DNA of 24,000 nucleotides from Arenicellales bacterium (GCA_964291225.2 OZ219781.1:1535353-1559352); one strand, 5' to 3'. Counted from the stretch's first letter, positions 1-24,000 are shown. The notes: generated from the sequence alone by a model not told the origin. Program-made: numbers and translations.

Positions 1-147
1 TTGACAACTGCTTGTTATAAAATTCACTACGTAGCGGTGCAGTTTTGATTATCGCATTACTTGATAACCAAATCGGTATACTTGAATAACTATAGTTGGT
101 AGTCTATTTTGCCAATCCCAATAGAGGTTTCTGTATTGTTATCATGA

Positions 148-177
148 TGCATATTTGCTTTTTATGCAGGCTTTTTT
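148..177 (+). terminator. Candidate rho-independent terminator of an upstream (off-window) gene
   Basis: tgcata (148-153) pairs with tatgca (163-168). After ggc comes a T6 run (172-177). The stem is AU-rich, so the call is weak. Confidence 0.3.
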
Positions 178-209
178 ATTCGTCTGTACTCCCGTAGGTA
201 TTTTGTCAA

Positions 210-1316
210 ATGCTAAAGAGTCCTCTGCACCAATTGCACCTTGAACTCGGAGCAAAAATGGGGCCATTTGCCGGTTACGAAATGCCACTTTGGTATCCCG
301 ACAAGATAATTGCCGAACATCTCCACACCCGTCAGGCAGCAAGCCTGTTTGACATCTCGCACATGGGGCAAGCCAACATCTTTGGTATTGATTGCGCAAA
401 AGAACTCGAACGGTTAATTCCAACAGACATTGAGAATCTCCCGGTCAATAAAATGCGATACTGTTGCTTCACAAACGATAATGGTGGCATTCTTGATGAC
501 CTGATCATTTCGAATCTTGGTCAAAAATACTATATCGTGATGAATGCCGCCCGCAAAGAACATGACCTTAAGCACCTTCGCGACAATACTGCCCAAACCA
601 CTACTTCTGTTGAATATTTTGAAAACGCTTTAATCGCATTGCAAGGGCCTATGGCATCTGATGTTCTCCGCCGCGCAAATCCTGATATCTGCGATCTCGG
701 TTTTATGACAATCGCCGAATTCATGATCAAAGATGTGCCGTGCATTGTCAGTCGCTCTGGCTACACCGGAGAAGATGGGTTTGAAATCTCAGTACCATCT
801 CAAAACACAGTTGAGTTGGTGCGGTGGTTACTAAACGAACCGGAAGTCAAACCAGCCGGACTAGGTGCCAGAGATTCCCTGCGACTTGAAGCTGGCCTTC
901 GCCTCTACGGGCAAGACATGGACACCAATACAACACCAGTTGAGGCCGGCATCCAGTGGACTATTCCAAATTCACGGCGGATCGGTGGCGAACGTGCTGG
1001 CGGTTTTCCTGGTAGCGACATCATCCTCAACCAGCTAATCAACGGGCCAAAACGCAAAATGACAGCCATGCGGCTCACAGGTAACGCACCGGCGCGTACC
1101 GGAACCGAAATTGTGAGCGCGGATCGCACTCCAATTGGCAAGGTCACAAGCGGCATGTTCGCACCATCAGTTGGCGCTCCAATCGCAATGGGATATGTTG
1201 AGACAGAATACTCTAAACCAGGCAAAGAAATCAATCTGCTATCGCGTGGCAAAATGCTACCGGCAATAGTAACCCGTTTGCCGTTTGTAAAACATCGTTA
1301 CCACACTCTCGTGTGA
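210..1316 (+). CDS. gcvT: Aminomethyltransferase, glycine cleavage system T protein
   Basis: 368-aa ORF. Family-typical segments include GPFAGYEMPLWY, SRSGYTGEDGFEI and RDSLRLEAGLRLYGQD. It is first in the canonical gcvT-gcvH-gcvP order. Confidence 0.95.
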   Translation: MLKSPLHQLHLELGAKMGPFAGYEMPLWYPDKIIAEHLHTRQAASLFDISHMGQANIFGIDCAKELERLIPTDIENLPVNKMRYCCFTNDNGGILDDLIISNLGQKYYIVMNAARKEHDLKHLRDNTAQTTTSVEYFENALIALQGPMASDVLRRANPDICDLGFMTIAEFMIKDVPCIVSRSGYTGEDGFEISVPSQNTVELVRWLLNEPEVKPAGLGARDSLRLEAGLRLYGQDMDTNTTPVEAGIQWTIPNSRRIGGERAGGFPGSDIILNQLINGPKRKMTAMRLTGNAPARTGTEIVSADRTPIGKVTSGMFAPSVGAPIAMGYVETEYSKPGKEINLLSRGKMLPAIVTRLPFVKHRYHTLV

Positions 1317-14664: not shown

Positions 14665-15186
14665 ATTAGTTTGCACCAAATTAATATATGTTTGTTGCAA
14701 TTTACCAAGCATCATCCCGGACAGGTGGCGCAGTTGGTAATTTCACCCGCGTATCCTAATGTGCCATCTGAGACCATACCCAAGGCACAAAGCCATCAAA
14801 ACACAAAGAACATGGTCATTTGACGCATGATTTCCGCGACCTAGATGCTGCCTTCTTAACCACCTAACACAAAATACCACTCTGATTGACAGTTCTCTAT
14901 ATCCTTGCAAGTGGCTCACTAGGGTAAACTGCTTTTCGGCAGGATATTTCGCAACTGCTACTGACCAAACCCGAAATATAGTCAGAAACACGACATTCAA
15001 ATTGAATGATATAACAGATATACCATAAACTAACTACCCCAAGAACTATGACCATTCAACTATCTGCTTGGCAGTCAAAAACGAAAGCTAAGCTTCAAGT
15101 TCAAGAAGCCTGAACTTAATGCGTGTGGCCTACTTACCGATCGTACCAGATTAGGGTTTAAAACGTAGGATACATCACACCAATCT

Positions 15187-20583: not shown

Positions 20584-21921
20584 TCAAACAGCCGCCCGGC
20601 GCAATTTGCGAGACGGTAATTTCATTTCTGTACGATACTTTGCAACCGCGCGCCGAGATAGCTTCAATCCACTCTGGTATAAAGTTTCAGTAATCTGTTG
20701 ATCGCTCAATGGAGACCGAGGGTCCTCTTGTTCGACAATTTGCTTGATCTTGAATTTAATAGCCGGCACCGAGACATCACCGCCAGTATTGTTGACAATT
20801 CCAGCCGAGAAAAACCGCTTGAACTCAATAGTGCCCCGCGGTGTTAGCATGTATTTGCGCGCGCAAGCCCTGCTCACTGTTGATTCGTGCAGTTCAAGCA
20901 TATCTGCAATATCTCTCAATTTCAATGGCCTCAGTGCGTGCTCCCCTTCATCTAAAAAAGACTGTTGACAACTGACAATGGCGCGTGCCACTCGCAATAC
21001 GGTTTGGTGACGCCGGCTCAGGCCATCCAAAAACGAACTAGCCTTTGTCAAATTTTTTTCAAGATACTCGCGACCAGCATCGTCTCTAGTGTTGCCAATC
21101 ATTGACTGGTAATGATTTGATATTTTCAATTGAGGCAACATCGATGAGTTGAGTTCAACTTGCCAGCTGTGATCAATTTTACGCACAATTACATCCGACT
21201 CCACAATTTGCGCACTCTCACCAAACTGATTTCCAGGCGATGGGTTAAGAGATTTTATCAACTCAACGGCAGCATAAACAGACTTGAGGTCACAATTGTA
21301 TAGCGCTGATAACTTCGTGTGTTCGTTCTCAGCAACTTGTTGCAGATTGTTAGCGACAATATCGTGTGCGAGTTGGCAAACGGAAGTGAATCTAGGTTGT
21401 GCATCAATCTGAATGCAAAGACATTCTTCAAGGTTGCGCGCCGCCACACCAAGTGGTTCAAACCTTTGCACCTTTGCCAGAGTTGCCATGATGTCACCTT
21501 CGGTGAGATTTGCATCATCAACCAGCGAGAGGATTGTATCAACAGACTCTCTCAAGTATCCACGTTCATCTAAAGACTCAATTATGGCTTGTGCGACCAT
21601 GCGCTCAATACCAATCATCCCTGATCCTAATACCTGAGCTAGCAGATGTTCACGCAAGCTTGGAGCTTTATGCATATCAGCCGCATACTCCAAATAATCA
21701 CAGGAATTGTAACTATCCGGCAAACTCCCGTTCAAAAGATCCCCATTTAAGCCAACTGATTGAGGTGCGACCTCCTCAAGCAAAGGGTTGGATTCAACTG
21801 CGTCCTGAATATGTTCAACAAGCTCTGTCAACGGCAATTGCAGGATATGCACTGCGATAGAGAAGCGAGCATTGAAAACCTGCTTTTGTCGCTGTCGCAA
21901 TTCCAAGCGCGAGCTTATCAT
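20584..21921 (-). CDS. rpoN: RNA polymerase sigma-54 factor
   Basis: 445 aa. Region I (LELRQRQKQ...ILQLPLTEL), HTH (LHESTVSRA) and RpoN box (SRRAVAKYR). Confidence 0.95.
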   Translation of the reverse strand: MISSRLELRQRQKQVFNARFSIAVHILQLPLTELVEHIQDAVESNPLLEEVAPQSVGLNGDLLNGSLPDSYNSCDYLEYAADMHKAPSLREHLLAQVLGSGMIGIERMVAQAIIESLDERGYLRESVDTILSLVDDANLTEGDIMATLAKVQRFEPLGVAARNLEECLCIQIDAQPRFTSVCQLAHDIVANNLQQVAENEHTKLSALYNCDLKSVYAAVELIKSLNPSPGNQFGESAQIVESDVIVRKIDHSWQVELNSSMLPQLKISNHYQSMIGNTRDDAGREYLEKNLTKASSFLDGLSRRHQTVLRVARAIVSCQQSFLDEGEHALRPLKLRDIADMLELHESTVSRACARKYMLTPRGTIEFKRFFSAGIVNNTGGDVSVPAIKFKIKQIVEQEDPRSPLSDQQITETLYQSGLKLSRRAVAKYRTEMKLPSRKLRRAAV

Positions 21922-23760
21922 AGTCGACTCTCAATCAAACTGTCAATGAATACTAATATGGCCAAGCATTATTATGCAATTCTATAACAAACAAAGCTCA
22001 TACATCACCATCAATTTCCTAAAATTCAAACATTCTGATCTCAAAACCCAGCTCGCACCCATCTAGCAAAGTGACAACCCCAAAAAACTCTTACTTCTTA
22101 GATACAGTTTACTTGGCATACTACCAGTGAAGTGACTCTCTACCACCAATCCTTGTAACCGTGTGTTAGTAGTACTTAATATATGAAACTTCGCATCGCC
22201 GTTTTAATCTATGTTGTCAGAATTTTGCGCTTGATAGTGGAGAAACGCTATTGTCACTGATTAAATGGCTCAACAGCACCGATACTGTTTAGCCGTGATC
22301 CAACAAGCTGACTCGATTGCAAACATACGGCTCCAGTACCTCATCAGACGAACAACATAATATGAGGTGTTTGTAATACCCTAAATATACGGCATTTGTA
22401 TTGATGTTAAAAATAATATATTTATCAATTACTTAATTAATTTAAATCATTCAAAAGTTGGAATAATTGAATGCTTCTTGCGGTTTCAACTGCTAATTGG
22501 TCTGGGGATCGAATCGGTAATTGGAAAGTCCTGAAAACAATACCTAATCACATAACTTGATATTATATGATTGGAGAACAGAGGATCATTTAAGTCTGAG
22601 ACATCGCTCATGTATCAAGCACCGCAAATCATCATAGGTCAATACGGAAACAGAAACGACAATAACATAAAACCATCTTTTTTGTCGGTCATGGGCTGTT
22701 ATCGCTAGATTGAAAGCCTAATTGCCGGCACTGAAAGCAGAATCAAAACAGAAGCCTCTGACACAGGGTTGCAATCCGGGATGATGTTACCCAGTTAAGA
22801 GATGAGGCTGAATTTCAAGAGGCGCCCGGTGACAGTGAGAATCCCTGAACAATCTGAAAAGTGAGAATAATTTCACGCGCATGATTACCGACTCGTCATA
22901 CCGGATTACGATGTGGAAATACTCAACACTGTTTGCACAATTGAAACAAGCGTCGGAATAGATAGATATAGGCATGAAAACCGGTGGCAAGGTCACCGAC
23001 AGTGTAAATCGGCGGACTTAGTGCTGAAAGATCTGGTGAAGCTCTACAGCAAAAAATCTACGGACGTACCCAAGCGATTGTTGAAGGGAAAATCACTTGC
23101 GCGTTCTGAGCTGCAAAAGATAGCGGTAATGACTGATGAGGTGCAATTCTACGAATAAGAGAATACACCGGTATTGCAGGAGTTGCACACCGGTGGTCAC
23201 AAGTTGCGAAATTGGCGTTGCCGTGTGGACTTCGCCTACTCTGAATCAATGCTAACTGCAGCGAGGGGCTCGCACTTTGCCCAAAACCGATCAGCTTATC
23301 AATGTGCAAACAATCACCCGCCGAAGCCAAAGAGGCGGTCGAATCTGTCAGAGCTGTATCGAAAGGTTATCAGATCAAAGGTCAACACCACGCCTCAGAC
23401 CTGCCTGAGAAGATAGATGCTTGGTGAGATGGCTGACTACAATTTCTGAAGCACCATATGGTAGCCTTGACCATTCAGTTCAGTGCCAACAATATGGAAC
23501 TGTCAAGAATAGATGAGTCAACGGTGTGTAGCGATGGTAATGCAAATCGTGCTGAGTATTACAAGGACAGGTTGAAAAACTTGCCAAACAGTGAAAGCGA
23601 GCAATTGCTCGGTAATGTTACACGGCTGATTGATTCTGACGACTGTAAGAAAATAGAGGTTCTTAGCCCACATTTGAAAGAAATATAATAATATAACATC
23701 AATTAGTTGTAAACACTGGAACGTCATATATAGCACTGGTTAAAGTGCCGTAACTCAATC
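21922..23760. other. ORF-poor accessory segment upstream of rpoN (nature unknown: structured RNA, mobile-element remnant or decayed genes)
   Basis: No ORF exceeds 90 codons in any of the six frames over 1.84 kb. The listed ORFs (22787-23416) overlap one another on both strands and look non-protein-like. Composition is heterogeneous by eye. Confidence 0.55.
23458..23688 (+). CDS. Hypothetical small protein (76 aa, or 64 aa from the ATG at 23494)
   Basis: The open frame has a plausible soluble-protein composition (MELSRIDESTVCSDGNANRAEYYKDRLKNLPNSESEQLLGNVTRLIDSDDCKKIEVLSPHLKEI). It converges on the edge ORF, with a hairpin between them. There is no clear SD and I recognise no family. Confidence 0.3.
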   Translation: MVALTIQFSANNMELSRIDESTVCSDGNANRAEYYKDRLKNLPNSESEQLLGNVTRLIDSDDCKKIEVLSPHLKEI

Positions 23761-24000
23761 TCAGATCGCCAACCGATGGCTCCAACCAGCTGTGTAGGAA
23801 ACACCAGGTGCATCATAAATCTGCCGATGTTTCAGCTCTGCATGAGACGATTTGCGTATGTGGGTGGTGTGACCGTCGGCCATCTCCAATGCGGCGGTGA
23901 CGCAACCGTGCATCCAGTGCTTATTCAAAGCTGTTGGTGAAACGCCTGCAATGGCTCTCCCCTTCTCGCTCCTGGCTTTTGAGCAGCAGTTGACAATGAT
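23761..24000 (-). CDS. Hypothetical protein, C-terminal 79 codons only (continues beyond the window edge)
   Basis: This ORF is absent from the ORF track because it has no in-window start. The minus-strand frame is open from the window edge to the TGA at 23763-23761: IIVNCCSKARSEKGRAIAGVSPTALNKHWMHGCVTAALEMADGHTTHIRKSSHAELKHRQIYDAPGVSYTAGWSHRLAI. RAIAGVSPTALNKHW resembles an HTH recognition segment. The peptide is His-rich. No family recognised. Confidence 0.3.
   Translation of the reverse strand: MIVNCCSKARSEKGRAIAGVSPTALNKHWMHGCVTAALEMADGHTTHIRKSSHAELKHRQIYDAPGVSYTAGWSHRLAI

What the first reader, a model, noticed from the sequence alone, without database searches (positions are those of the whole stretch)
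21922..23760. The lptB-rpoN linkage is broken by 1.84 kb with no credible ORF
In enterobacteria, vibrios, pseudomonads and many other gammaproteobacteria, rpoN directly follows lptB (lptC-lptA-lptB-rpoN-hpf-ptsN-rapZ-ptsO). The downstream half of that cluster is intact here. Upstream of the rpoN ATG (21921), however, no frame is open for more than 90 codons over 1.84 kb. The rest of the window is tightly packed, with many 4-nt gene overlaps. A gap this long at such a conserved junction suggests an insertion or replacement: a non-coding RNA locus, a mobile-element remnant or a decayed island.
Basis: partly seen in the sequence, partly recalled or inferred. Interest (0 to 1): 0.7.

Follow-up and report, generated by a model that had tools for sequence, protein, structure and literature searches.

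The report
Dead ATPase gene upstream of rpoN
The long "empty" stretch in front of the sigma-54 gene is mostly the wreck of a P-loop ATPase gene, part of a recently shared accessory DNA block that replaced the usual lptB neighbour; it is an ordinary pseudogene, not a new RNA locus.

Summary
Window 21922-23760 has no ORF longer than 90 aa, and lptB is absent. More distant relatives (RpoN 48-51% identical) keep lptC-lptA-lptB-rpoN, followed by the same downstream gene order as here. The stretch is not featureless, though. On the + strand, 22610-23688 (probably to about 23850) is a badly decayed pseudogene of a rare, uncharacterised P-loop NTPase. tblastn with the intact 432-aa homologue P0265 gives E=1e-71. 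The copy carries five in-frame stops, at least six frame changes and a roughly 20-codon deletion that removes the Walker A motif. The remaining 688 nt (21922-22609, 36% GC) is an AT-rich spacer in which nothing was detected. One close relative (RpoN 88% identical) has the same locus with almost all the same lesions, plus a degenerate IS1595 element inserted in it. The gap differs by only 3.9% between the two genomes, against 26% at four-fold degenerate sites of 19 flanking genes. The next gene upstream, an 863-aa orphan secreted-type protein, is 98% identical, so the low divergence marks a recently shared block rather than constraint. I found no Rfam hit, no folding signal, no lpt remnant and no DnaA boxes. 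Verdict: a plain pseudogene at the edge of an accessory block. Interest is low.

The parts
20584..21921 (-). rpoN (sigma-54, 445 aa), the first gene of the conserved rpoN-hpf-ptsN-rapZ-ptsO-ptsI-mgtE run. The synteny break and the step in divergence both lie at its start codon.
   Evidence: NCBIfam TIGR02395 at 404 bits. Third-position divergence from L001 is still about 20% in codons 1-50.
21922..22609 (.). AT-rich spacer of 688 nt (36% GC) between rpoN and the divergently oriented pseudogene. No feature was detected. It presumably carries the present rpoN promoter (inferred, not shown).
   Evidence: No Rfam match. Folding z-scores are within noise. Coding scores are negative in all six frames. 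There is no lpt similarity. Divergence from L001 is 4.3%, with a 10-nt and a 1-nt indel.
22610..23688 (+). Body of a decayed P-loop NTPase pseudogene, corresponding to residues 1-374 of the intact 432-aa homologue P0265.
   Evidence: tblastn with P0265: residues 1-247 match 22610-23284 (frame +2, 43% identity) and residues 258-374 match 23314-23667 (frame +1, 56% identity), E=1e-71. The homologues came from a full HMMER search.
22796..22826 (+). Site of a roughly 20-codon deletion that removes the Walker A motif (GAPGAGKS... of the homologues). Only 'EFQEAPG' survives, fused out of frame to 'PVTVRIP'.
   Evidence: Alignment gaps, fragments. There is no indel against L001 here, so the deletion is shared.
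22706..22708 (+). In-frame TAG, shared with L001. Further in-frame stops: TAG at 22959 (window only, inside a 4-nt indel), TAA at 23156, TGA at 23425 (Cys in P0265) and TGA at 23434 (Trp in P0265).
   Evidence: One search lists each stop and the corresponding L001 codon.
23156..23158 (+). In-frame TAA. In the relative L001 a 904-bp degenerate IS1595-family element is inserted exactly here.
   Evidence: 24-nt terminal inverted repeats, 2-3 bp duplication 'ATA'. Pfam DDE_Tnp_IS1595 is recorded on the called fragment.
23689..23850 (+). Probable decayed C-terminal tail of the pseudogene (residues about 375-432), shortened by a deletion.
   Evidence: Support is weak: two collinear matches in frame +1 (the frame of 23314-23667), at 23737-23796 (E 0.83) and 23806-23835 (E 0.30). 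Neither is significant alone.
22913..23158 (+). 81-aa ORF that is called as a gene in the source genome's public record. It is a fragment of the pseudogene.
   Evidence: The exact sequence is in the protein collection (P0256). It lies inside the P0265 alignment. L001 has a 4-nt indel within it and the IS at its stop.
23458..23688 (+). 76-aa ORF that is called as a gene in the source genome's public record. It is a fragment of the pseudogene.
   Evidence: P0264. In L001 the codon CGG at 23623 is TAG. All 11 base differences in this ORF fall on codon positions 1 or 2 (read).
23761..24000 (-). Open frame that runs off the window, antisense to the pseudogene tail. Probably spurious.
   Evidence: Three single-base indels against L001 change its frame. 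No Pfam, NCBIfam, PHROGs or PADLOC hit.

Best explanation
In this lineage the ancestral lptC-lptA-lptB-rpoN junction was broken in the lptB-rpoN spacer. rpoN now abuts an accessory block. Reading away from rpoN, that block holds a 688-nt AT-rich spacer, then a dead gene on the opposite strand for a rare P-loop NTPase (AAA_22/AAA_16/NACHT-like), and beyond the window an 863-aa orphan gene whose signal-peptide-like N-terminus and ...VEF C-terminus suggest a secreted or outer-membrane protein. The NTPase gene is inactive: its Walker A motif is deleted, and it carries five in-frame stops and at least six frame changes. The 'empty' 1.84 kb is therefore a pseudogene plus one long intergenic spacer that evolves neutrally. 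Its striking similarity to the close relative (3.9% divergence against 26% at neutral sites of flanking genes) arises because the whole block shares a much more recent common ancestor than the flanking core genes. That points to recombination or transfer between the two lineages. Shown: the pseudogene, the shared lesions, the synteny break and the divergence step. Inferred: recent exchange as the cause of the step, the order of events, and that the spacer now supplies the rpoN promoter.
For: 1. A full HMMER search with the stop-free segment 23437-23685(+) found P0265 (E 6e-16), P0266 (2e-12), P0268 (5.8e-06) and P0269 (2e-05).
2. tblastn with P0265 covers residues 1-374 over 22610-23667 in two frames, E=1e-71. 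Ungapped pieces trace further frame changes and the lost P-loop.
3. The stops TAG 22706, TAA 23156, TGA 23425 and TGA 23434 are shared with L001.
4. The homologues are P-loop NTPases: P0268 scores 31.7 bits on AAA_22 (cut-off 27), with AAA_16 and NACHT below their cut-offs.
5. The changes between the window and L001 look neutral. The variance/mean of substitution counts is 1.07-1.44. There are 8 indels per 2.08 kb. L001 has an IS1595 insertion and an extra TAG.
6. Divergence is 3.9% across 21922-24000 (3.4% in the pseudogene body), against 26.4% at 2,708 four-fold sites of 19 flanking genes and 13-44% in the longer intergenic spacers.
7. The adjacent 863-aa protein is 845/863 identical between the two genomes, whereas RpoN is 88% identical. 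Its gene has 49-56% GC against 42-46% for the core.
8. Relatives L002/L003 and L006 keep lptC-lptA-lptB-rpoN.
Against: 1. The step from about 20% third-position divergence to about 4% falls within roughly 30 nt of the rpoN ATG. That is sharper than a random recombination end-point would be expected to give, and I cannot explain it.
2. Only two genomes carry the locus, so selection and shared ancestry are separated by indirect arguments.
3. I could not see which divergence level is typical of the genome pair. Window 1-1200 is a third, intermediate block.
4. L001 comes from a long-read metagenome assembly, so a strain-chimeric contig could imitate block-wise divergence.
5. The 688-nt spacer and the roughly 700 nt between the pseudogene body and the 863-aa gene remain unassigned.
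6. lptCAB was not located. It is absent from about 40 kb of the relative.
Confidence: 0.85

Rival explanations
1. The stretch is a functional non-coding element, such as a large ncRNA, a long rpoN leader or a regulatory region, held nearly constant by purifying selection.
For: Divergence from the relative is about 7-fold lower than at four-fold sites of flanking genes. The step lies at the rpoN start codon.
Against: Most of the stretch is demonstrably a dead protein gene on the strand opposite to rpoN. There is no Rfam match, even at E<=10. Folding z-scores are within noise on both strands, with a single -3.6 window among 78. Substitutions are spread in a Poisson-like way and indels are frequent. 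The relative tolerates a 904-bp IS in the middle. The low divergence continues into a neighbouring protein gene (98% aa identity).
Confidence: 0.05
2. The stretch is a frameshifted remnant of lptB, lptA or lptC left behind at the original junction.
For: Only the position argues for it: this is where lptB sits in relatives.
Against: tblastn with LptC, LptA and LptB of relative L002 gives no hit in the gap at E<=10, nor in the 10 kb upstream in L001. The sequence matches a different family at E=1e-71.
Confidence: 0.01
3. The stretch is the remnant of a transposable element (IS or MITE) whose activity caused the rearrangement.
For: The relative carries IS1595 and DDE_Tnp_1_4 fragments within 10 kb upstream and an IS1595 copy inside the gap.
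Against: In the window there is no transposase similarity (Pfam, NCBIfam, PHROGs). It has no terminal inverted repeats or repeat families. There is no second copy in the window or in 40 kb of the relative. There is no match in plasmid, phage, viral or metagenome collections.
Confidence: 0.05
4. The 81-aa and 76-aa ORFs that the public record calls in this stretch are real small proteins.
For: Both are in the protein collection as called genes. The 76-aa ORF has a gene-like codon score.
Against: Both are internal fragments of the P0265 alignment. In the relative, one has a 4-nt indel plus an IS at its stop, and the other has a premature TAG. All 11 base differences in the 76-aa ORF are at codon positions 1-2.
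Confidence: 0.03
5. The block-wise low divergence is an assembly artefact: the relative's metagenome contig switches between a strain close to the source genome and a more distant one.
For: L001 and L004 come from a long-read metagenome assembly contig. Divergence changes abruptly, and there are at least three levels within 24 kb.
Against: The low-divergence block is still 3.9% different and carries its own IS insertion and indels, so it is not the source strain itself. I cannot test this without reads. It would not change the pseudogene finding.
Confidence: 0.1

Closest known systems
Canonical lptC-lptA-lptB-rpoN-hpf-ptsN-rapZ-npr cluster of Gammaproteobacteria (as in E. coli; from my own knowledge)
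   Same: The downstream half (rpoN-hpf-ptsN-rapZ-ptsO) is intact here. It continues into ptsI-mgtE exactly as in relative L006.
   Different: lptCAB is missing from the junction and from at least 10 kb upstream in the close relative. An accessory block takes its place.
Bacterial pseudogenes in IS-rich genomes (ordinary gene decay)
   Same: There are multiple nonsense mutations, frameshifts, loss of the catalytic motif and an IS insertion in the sister copy. The change between the two copies looks neutral.
   Different: Nothing differs in kind. The parent family is rare: the full search of 1.84 billion representatives returned 7 proteins, one of them the window's own 76-aa ORF. None is found in the plasmid or phage collections.
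P-loop NTPases of the AAA_22 / AAA_16 / NACHT (STAND-like) group, including the PADLOC model mad8
   Same: The intact homologues P0265 and P0268 carry a Walker A motif (GAPGAGKS/T) and a DE-type Walker B-like motif (VVMIDEVQ). They match these models over the NTPase domain.
   Different: Only P0268 passes a curated cut-off (AAA_22, 31.7 against 27 bits). The mad8 matches are weak (24-27 bits) and confined to the P-loop region. There is no NCBIfam or PDB relative. No genomic context could be retrieved. The function of the family is unknown, and the window copy has lost the motif.
IS1595-family insertion sequences
   Same: The 904-bp insert in the relative has 24-nt terminal inverted repeats and DDE_Tnp_IS1595 / Zn_ribbon_IS1595-type coding remnants.
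   Different: It is absent from the window. It is itself degenerate (broken reading frame), and its duplication is only 2-3 bp.

Membership tests
Pseudogene of the P0265-type P-loop NTPase | Significant translated similarity to intact homologues over most of their length | tested here: met
   tblastn with P0265, residues 1-374 of 432, E=1e-71. P0266, P0268 and P0269 also align.
Pseudogene of the P0265-type P-loop NTPase | Several independent inactivating lesions (stops, frameshifts, loss of an essential motif) | tested here: met
   Five in-frame stops, at least six frame changes and deletion of the Walker A region.
Pseudogene of the P0265-type P-loop NTPase | No purifying selection on the reading frame between related copies | tested here: met
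   L001 adds a TAG, a 4-nt indel and an IS. All 11 base differences in 23458-23688 are at codon positions 1-2. Substitution spacing is Poisson-like. The numbers are small.
Pfam AAA_22 (PF13401) P-loop NTPase domain | Score above the curated gathering cut-off | tested here: inconclusive
   Homologue P0268 scores 31.7 bits (cut-off 27), but P0265 scores 21.3 bits, below it. The window's own fragments give no Pfam hit because the P-loop part is deleted.
Known structured RNA family (Rfam 15) | Covariance-model match at or near the gathering score | tested here: not met
   There are no matches at gathering thresholds over the whole window. At E<=10 over 21800-24000 the only match is a 15.6-bit chance hit to an archaeal snoRNA model.
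Structured non-coding RNA in general | Folding energy below shuffled controls, and compensatory changes | tested here: not met
   z-scores of 150-nt windows on both strands lie mostly between -1.5 and +1.7. One candidate hairpin at 23168-23198 is broken, not compensated, in L001 (read). Two sequences give little power.
lptB / lptA / lptC remnant | Translated similarity to Lpt proteins of relatives | tested here: not met
   tblastn at E<=10 finds nothing in 21922-24000 or in L001 1-10000. L004 also has none.
Chromosomal replication origin (oriC) | Cluster of DnaA boxes (TTWTNCACA) next to an AT-rich unwinding element, with a persistent GC-skew switch | tested here: not met
   There are no DnaA boxes in the whole window, against 3.1 expected by chance. 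The skew change at about 22500 does not persist in L001 upstream.
Insertion sequence or MITE in the window | Terminal inverted repeats, target duplication, transposase similarity or multiple copies | tested here: not met
   Only the relative carries an IS here.

The most novel reading that the evidence does not exclude
An accessory block of at least 5.9 kb (orphan 863-aa surface-type gene, dead NTPase gene, AT-rich spacer) was recently passed between two lineages whose core genes differ by about 26% at neutral sites. One end of the exchanged tract lies within about 30 nt of the rpoN start codon, exactly at the old lptB-rpoN breakpoint. That could mean a targeted or homology-limited integration next to rpoN, with the spacer co-opted as the new rpoN promoter or leader.
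Probability: 0.12. Interest if true: 0.35.

Novelty: new member of a known kind. Interest (0 to 1): 0.15.

Why it matters
The main value is as a correction. A long ORF-free gap at a famously conserved junction looks like a candidate ncRNA locus. Its near-identity to a relative looks like strong constraint. Both impressions are misleading here: the gap is a decayed gene, and the similarity reflects recent shared ancestry of an accessory block. Two practical lessons follow. First, a word-indexed protein search missed a pseudogene that a full HMMER scan with one 83-aa fragment found. Second, conservation should be judged against neighbouring accessory genes, not only against core genes. The two 'hypothetical protein' calls in the public record (81 aa and 76 aa) should be replaced by one pseudogene feature. 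The biological residue is modest: rpoN has lost co-transcription with lptB in this lineage and must rely on a new upstream region.

Tried and rejected
1. Rfam at gathering and at E<=10 found nothing.
2. Sliding-window folding z-scores showed no signal.
3. Scans for tRNAs, terminators, promoters and repeats gave nothing beyond chance. The best promoter-like site (21946-21917, -) overlaps the rpoN ATG and would start transcription inside the gene.
4. The oriC idea came from the cumulative GC-skew minimum near 22500. I rejected it: there are no DnaA boxes, and no persistent skew change in L001.
5. lptB/A/C remnant: rejected.
6. blastn against plasmids and phages, and exact 22-24-mers in metagenome and viral contigs, found nothing.
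7. Pfam, NCBIfam, PHROGs and PADLOC on the individual ORF fragments found nothing.
8. A BLASTX-like query made of all stop-free segments of at least 38 aa, sent to the word-indexed 5.8-billion protein search, found nothing. This was a false negative. It did not even return the gap's own called ORFs, which are in the collection.
10. The source genome could not be retrieved by exact look-up of RpoN, HPF, GcvP or the 863-aa protein. It is also absent from the GTDB representative set.
11. Genomic context of the intact homologues P0265 and P0268 is not on record.
12. A search for island-end repeats in L001 found only the IS's own inverted repeats.

Full report
**1. The observation**

ORF listing and six-frame translation confirm the claim. 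Between the rpoN start (ATG at 21921, - strand) and 23760 there is no ORF longer than 90 aa, and no stop-free run longer than 102 codons. By my own estimate, that is about the length chance gives for this much sequence.

NCBIfam identifies RpoN, HPF, PtsN and RapZ on the - strand, followed by PtsI and MgtE, and lnt on the + strand convergent with mgtE. The rest of the window holds ordinary housekeeping genes. No tRNA, Rfam family, terminator or meaningful repeat lies in the stretch.

**2. Is the lptB-rpoN linkage really broken?**

Yes. The RpoN search found the source genome's own protein and one close relative at 88% identity. All other hits were at 51% or below.

- Two of the distant relatives were fetched. 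L002/L003 and L006 both have mlaFE | lptC-lptA-lptB-rpoN-hpf-ptsN.
- L006 continues rapZ-ptsO-ptsI-mgtE | lnt, exactly as in the window. Synteny is therefore conserved up to rpoN and breaks in the lptB-rpoN spacer.
- tblastn with those relatives' LptC, LptA and LptB finds nothing in the gap. It also finds nothing in about 40 kb of the close relative around the locus.

**3. The close relative has the same gap**

L001 (ENA ERZ24894574, contig ctg6519l) aligns with window 21001-23157 and 23155-24000. The alignment is interrupted by a 904-bp degenerate IS1595-family element inserted at window position 23156. Upstream, L001 carries an 863-aa orphan gene, a DDE_Tnp_1_4 fragment and another IS1595 copy. 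The orphan gene has a signal-peptide-like N-terminus and ends in ...VEF; reading it as a secreted or outer-membrane protein is my inference, with no family hit behind it.

**4. A misleading clue: the gap is far more similar than its surroundings**

| Region compared (window vs relative) | Divergence |
|---|---|
| 21922-24000 (2,063 aligned nt) | 3.9% |
| Pseudogene body 22610-23688 | 3.4% |
| 2,708 four-fold degenerate sites, 19 flanking genes | 26.4% |
| Longer intergenic spacers elsewhere in the window | 13-44% |
| rpoN codons 1-50, third positions | about 20% |

The step sits at the rpoN start codon. I considered three explanations: a constrained non-coding element, a replication origin, and recent shared ancestry.

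- Folding z-scores show no structure.
- There is no DnaA box in the window, and L001 shows no lasting skew switch.
- The changes in the gap look neutral. Substitution counts are Poisson-like (variance/mean 1.07-1.44), there are eight indels, and the relative has an IS insertion.
- The 863-aa protein upstream also exists in the source genome and is 845/863 identical to L001's copy, against 88% for RpoN.

The low-divergence block therefore spans at least 5.9 kb and includes a normal coding gene of higher GC. Window 1-1200 (gcvT) is another block, of intermediate divergence. The two genomes are evidently mosaic.

**5. What the gap is**

Codon-usage scoring gave a weak coding signal only on the + strand, strongest at 23450-23690. 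A word-indexed search with concatenated six-frame segments found nothing. That negative was unreliable, because it missed positive controls known to be in the collection.

A full HMMER scan of 1.84 billion representatives with the 83-aa stop-free segment 23437-23685(+) found real homologues:

- P0265: 432 aa, 51% identity, E 6e-16
- P0266: 164 aa
- P0268: 473 aa
- P0269: 280 aa

tblastn with P0265 aligns residues 1-247 to 22610-23284 (frame +2) and residues 258-374 to 23314-23667 (frame +1), with E=1e-71.

Following the frames shows extensive damage:

- At least six frame changes.
- In-frame stops at 22706, 22959, 23156, 23425 and 23434. The last two replace Cys and Trp of the homologue.
- A roughly 20-codon deletion that removes the Walker A motif. 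'EFQEAPG' is fused out of frame to 'PVTVRIP'.

All lesions except TAG 22959 are shared with L001, so the gene was already dead before the two copies separated. Two weak but collinear matches in frame +1 suggest the tail runs to about 23850.

The two ORFs called in the public record (81 aa and 76 aa) are fragments of this pseudogene. The - strand frame at 23761-24000 is antisense to the pseudogene tail and differs from L001 by three single-base indels.

**6. The parent family**

The intact homologues are P-loop NTPases. AAA_22 is above its cut-off for P0268. AAA_16 and NACHT are below theirs. PADLOC mad8 matches only weakly, over the P-loop. There is no NCBIfam or PDB relative. The family has no match in the plasmid or phage collections, and its genomic context could not be fetched. 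Its function is unknown. I do not assign it to any defence system.

**7. What remains unassigned**

- The 688-nt, 36% GC spacer 21922-22609.
- About 150 nt at the window end (roughly 23851-24000). In L001 a further 390 nt or so continues to the stop of the 863-aa gene.
- Why the divergence step coincides so closely with the rpoN start.
- Where lptCAB now lies.

The only other homologue of the 863-aa protein in the GTDB representative set (55% identity) is in an Arenicellales MAG. There it is not next to rpoN and has no gap-like neighbour. This hints at the taxonomic neighbourhood, but it is only a hint.

**8. Verdict**

The feature is a plain pseudogene plus a long spacer at the edge of a recently shared accessory block. 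No new RNA, element or mechanism is indicated.

Noticed in passing
L001 7873-8776 (equivalent to window 23156): A 904-bp degenerate IS1595-family element with 24-nt terminal inverted repeats and a 2-3 bp duplication (ATA). It is inserted exactly at the TAA that ends the annotated 81-aa ORF. Its GC content is higher than the host's.
   Followed up: partly
window 1-1316 (gcvT and its upstream region): A block of lower divergence from the relative: 4-9% per 150 nt, and 14.9% at gcvT four-fold sites against 26% elsewhere. Together with the rpoN-upstream block, this suggests mosaic recombination between the two lineages. ptsN is also low, at 10.8% of four-fold sites.
   Followed up: partly
window 14665-15186: The 522-nt spacer between the convergent lnt and mgtE genes is essentially unalignable with the relative. 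About half is missing there, and the remainder differs by 44%. This is the second-longest ORF-free stretch in the window, and I did not examine it.
   Followed up: no
L001 4047-6638 (just beyond window position 24000): An 863-aa orphan protein with a signal-peptide-like N-terminus and a C-terminus ending ...VEF (outer-membrane or autotransporter-like by eye). It has no Pfam, NCBIfam, PHROGs, PADLOC or PDB hit. It is 98% identical between the two genomes. The only other homologue in the GTDB representative set is at 55% identity, in an Arenicellales MAG (OZ220493.1).
   Followed up: partly
window 20584-21921: RpoN is short (445 aa) and unusually isolated. The nearest protein outside the two-genome clade is 51% identical, whereas GcvP of the same window reaches 82% in other genomes.
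   Followed up: no
window 23458-23688: All 11 base differences from L001 in this ORF fall on codon positions 1 or 2 and none on position 3 (chance about 1%). No alternative frame explains the pattern, so it is probably chance.
   Followed up: partly
method: The word-indexed protein search returned nothing for a concatenated six-frame query, although exact matches to parts of it (P0255-P0257, P0264) are in the collection. Its negatives for short or fragmentary queries should not be trusted.
   Followed up: yes
window 1-209: The region upstream of gcvT gives no Rfam match even at E<=1 (no glycine riboswitch hit), yet it differs from the relative by only 7.7%. The window may cut the element.
   Followed up: partly
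L004 4959-8036: In the relative, a 1025-aa N6-adenine-methyltransferase-like gene lies directly upstream of gcvT. Whether the source genome has it is unknown, because it lies outside the window.
   Followed up: no
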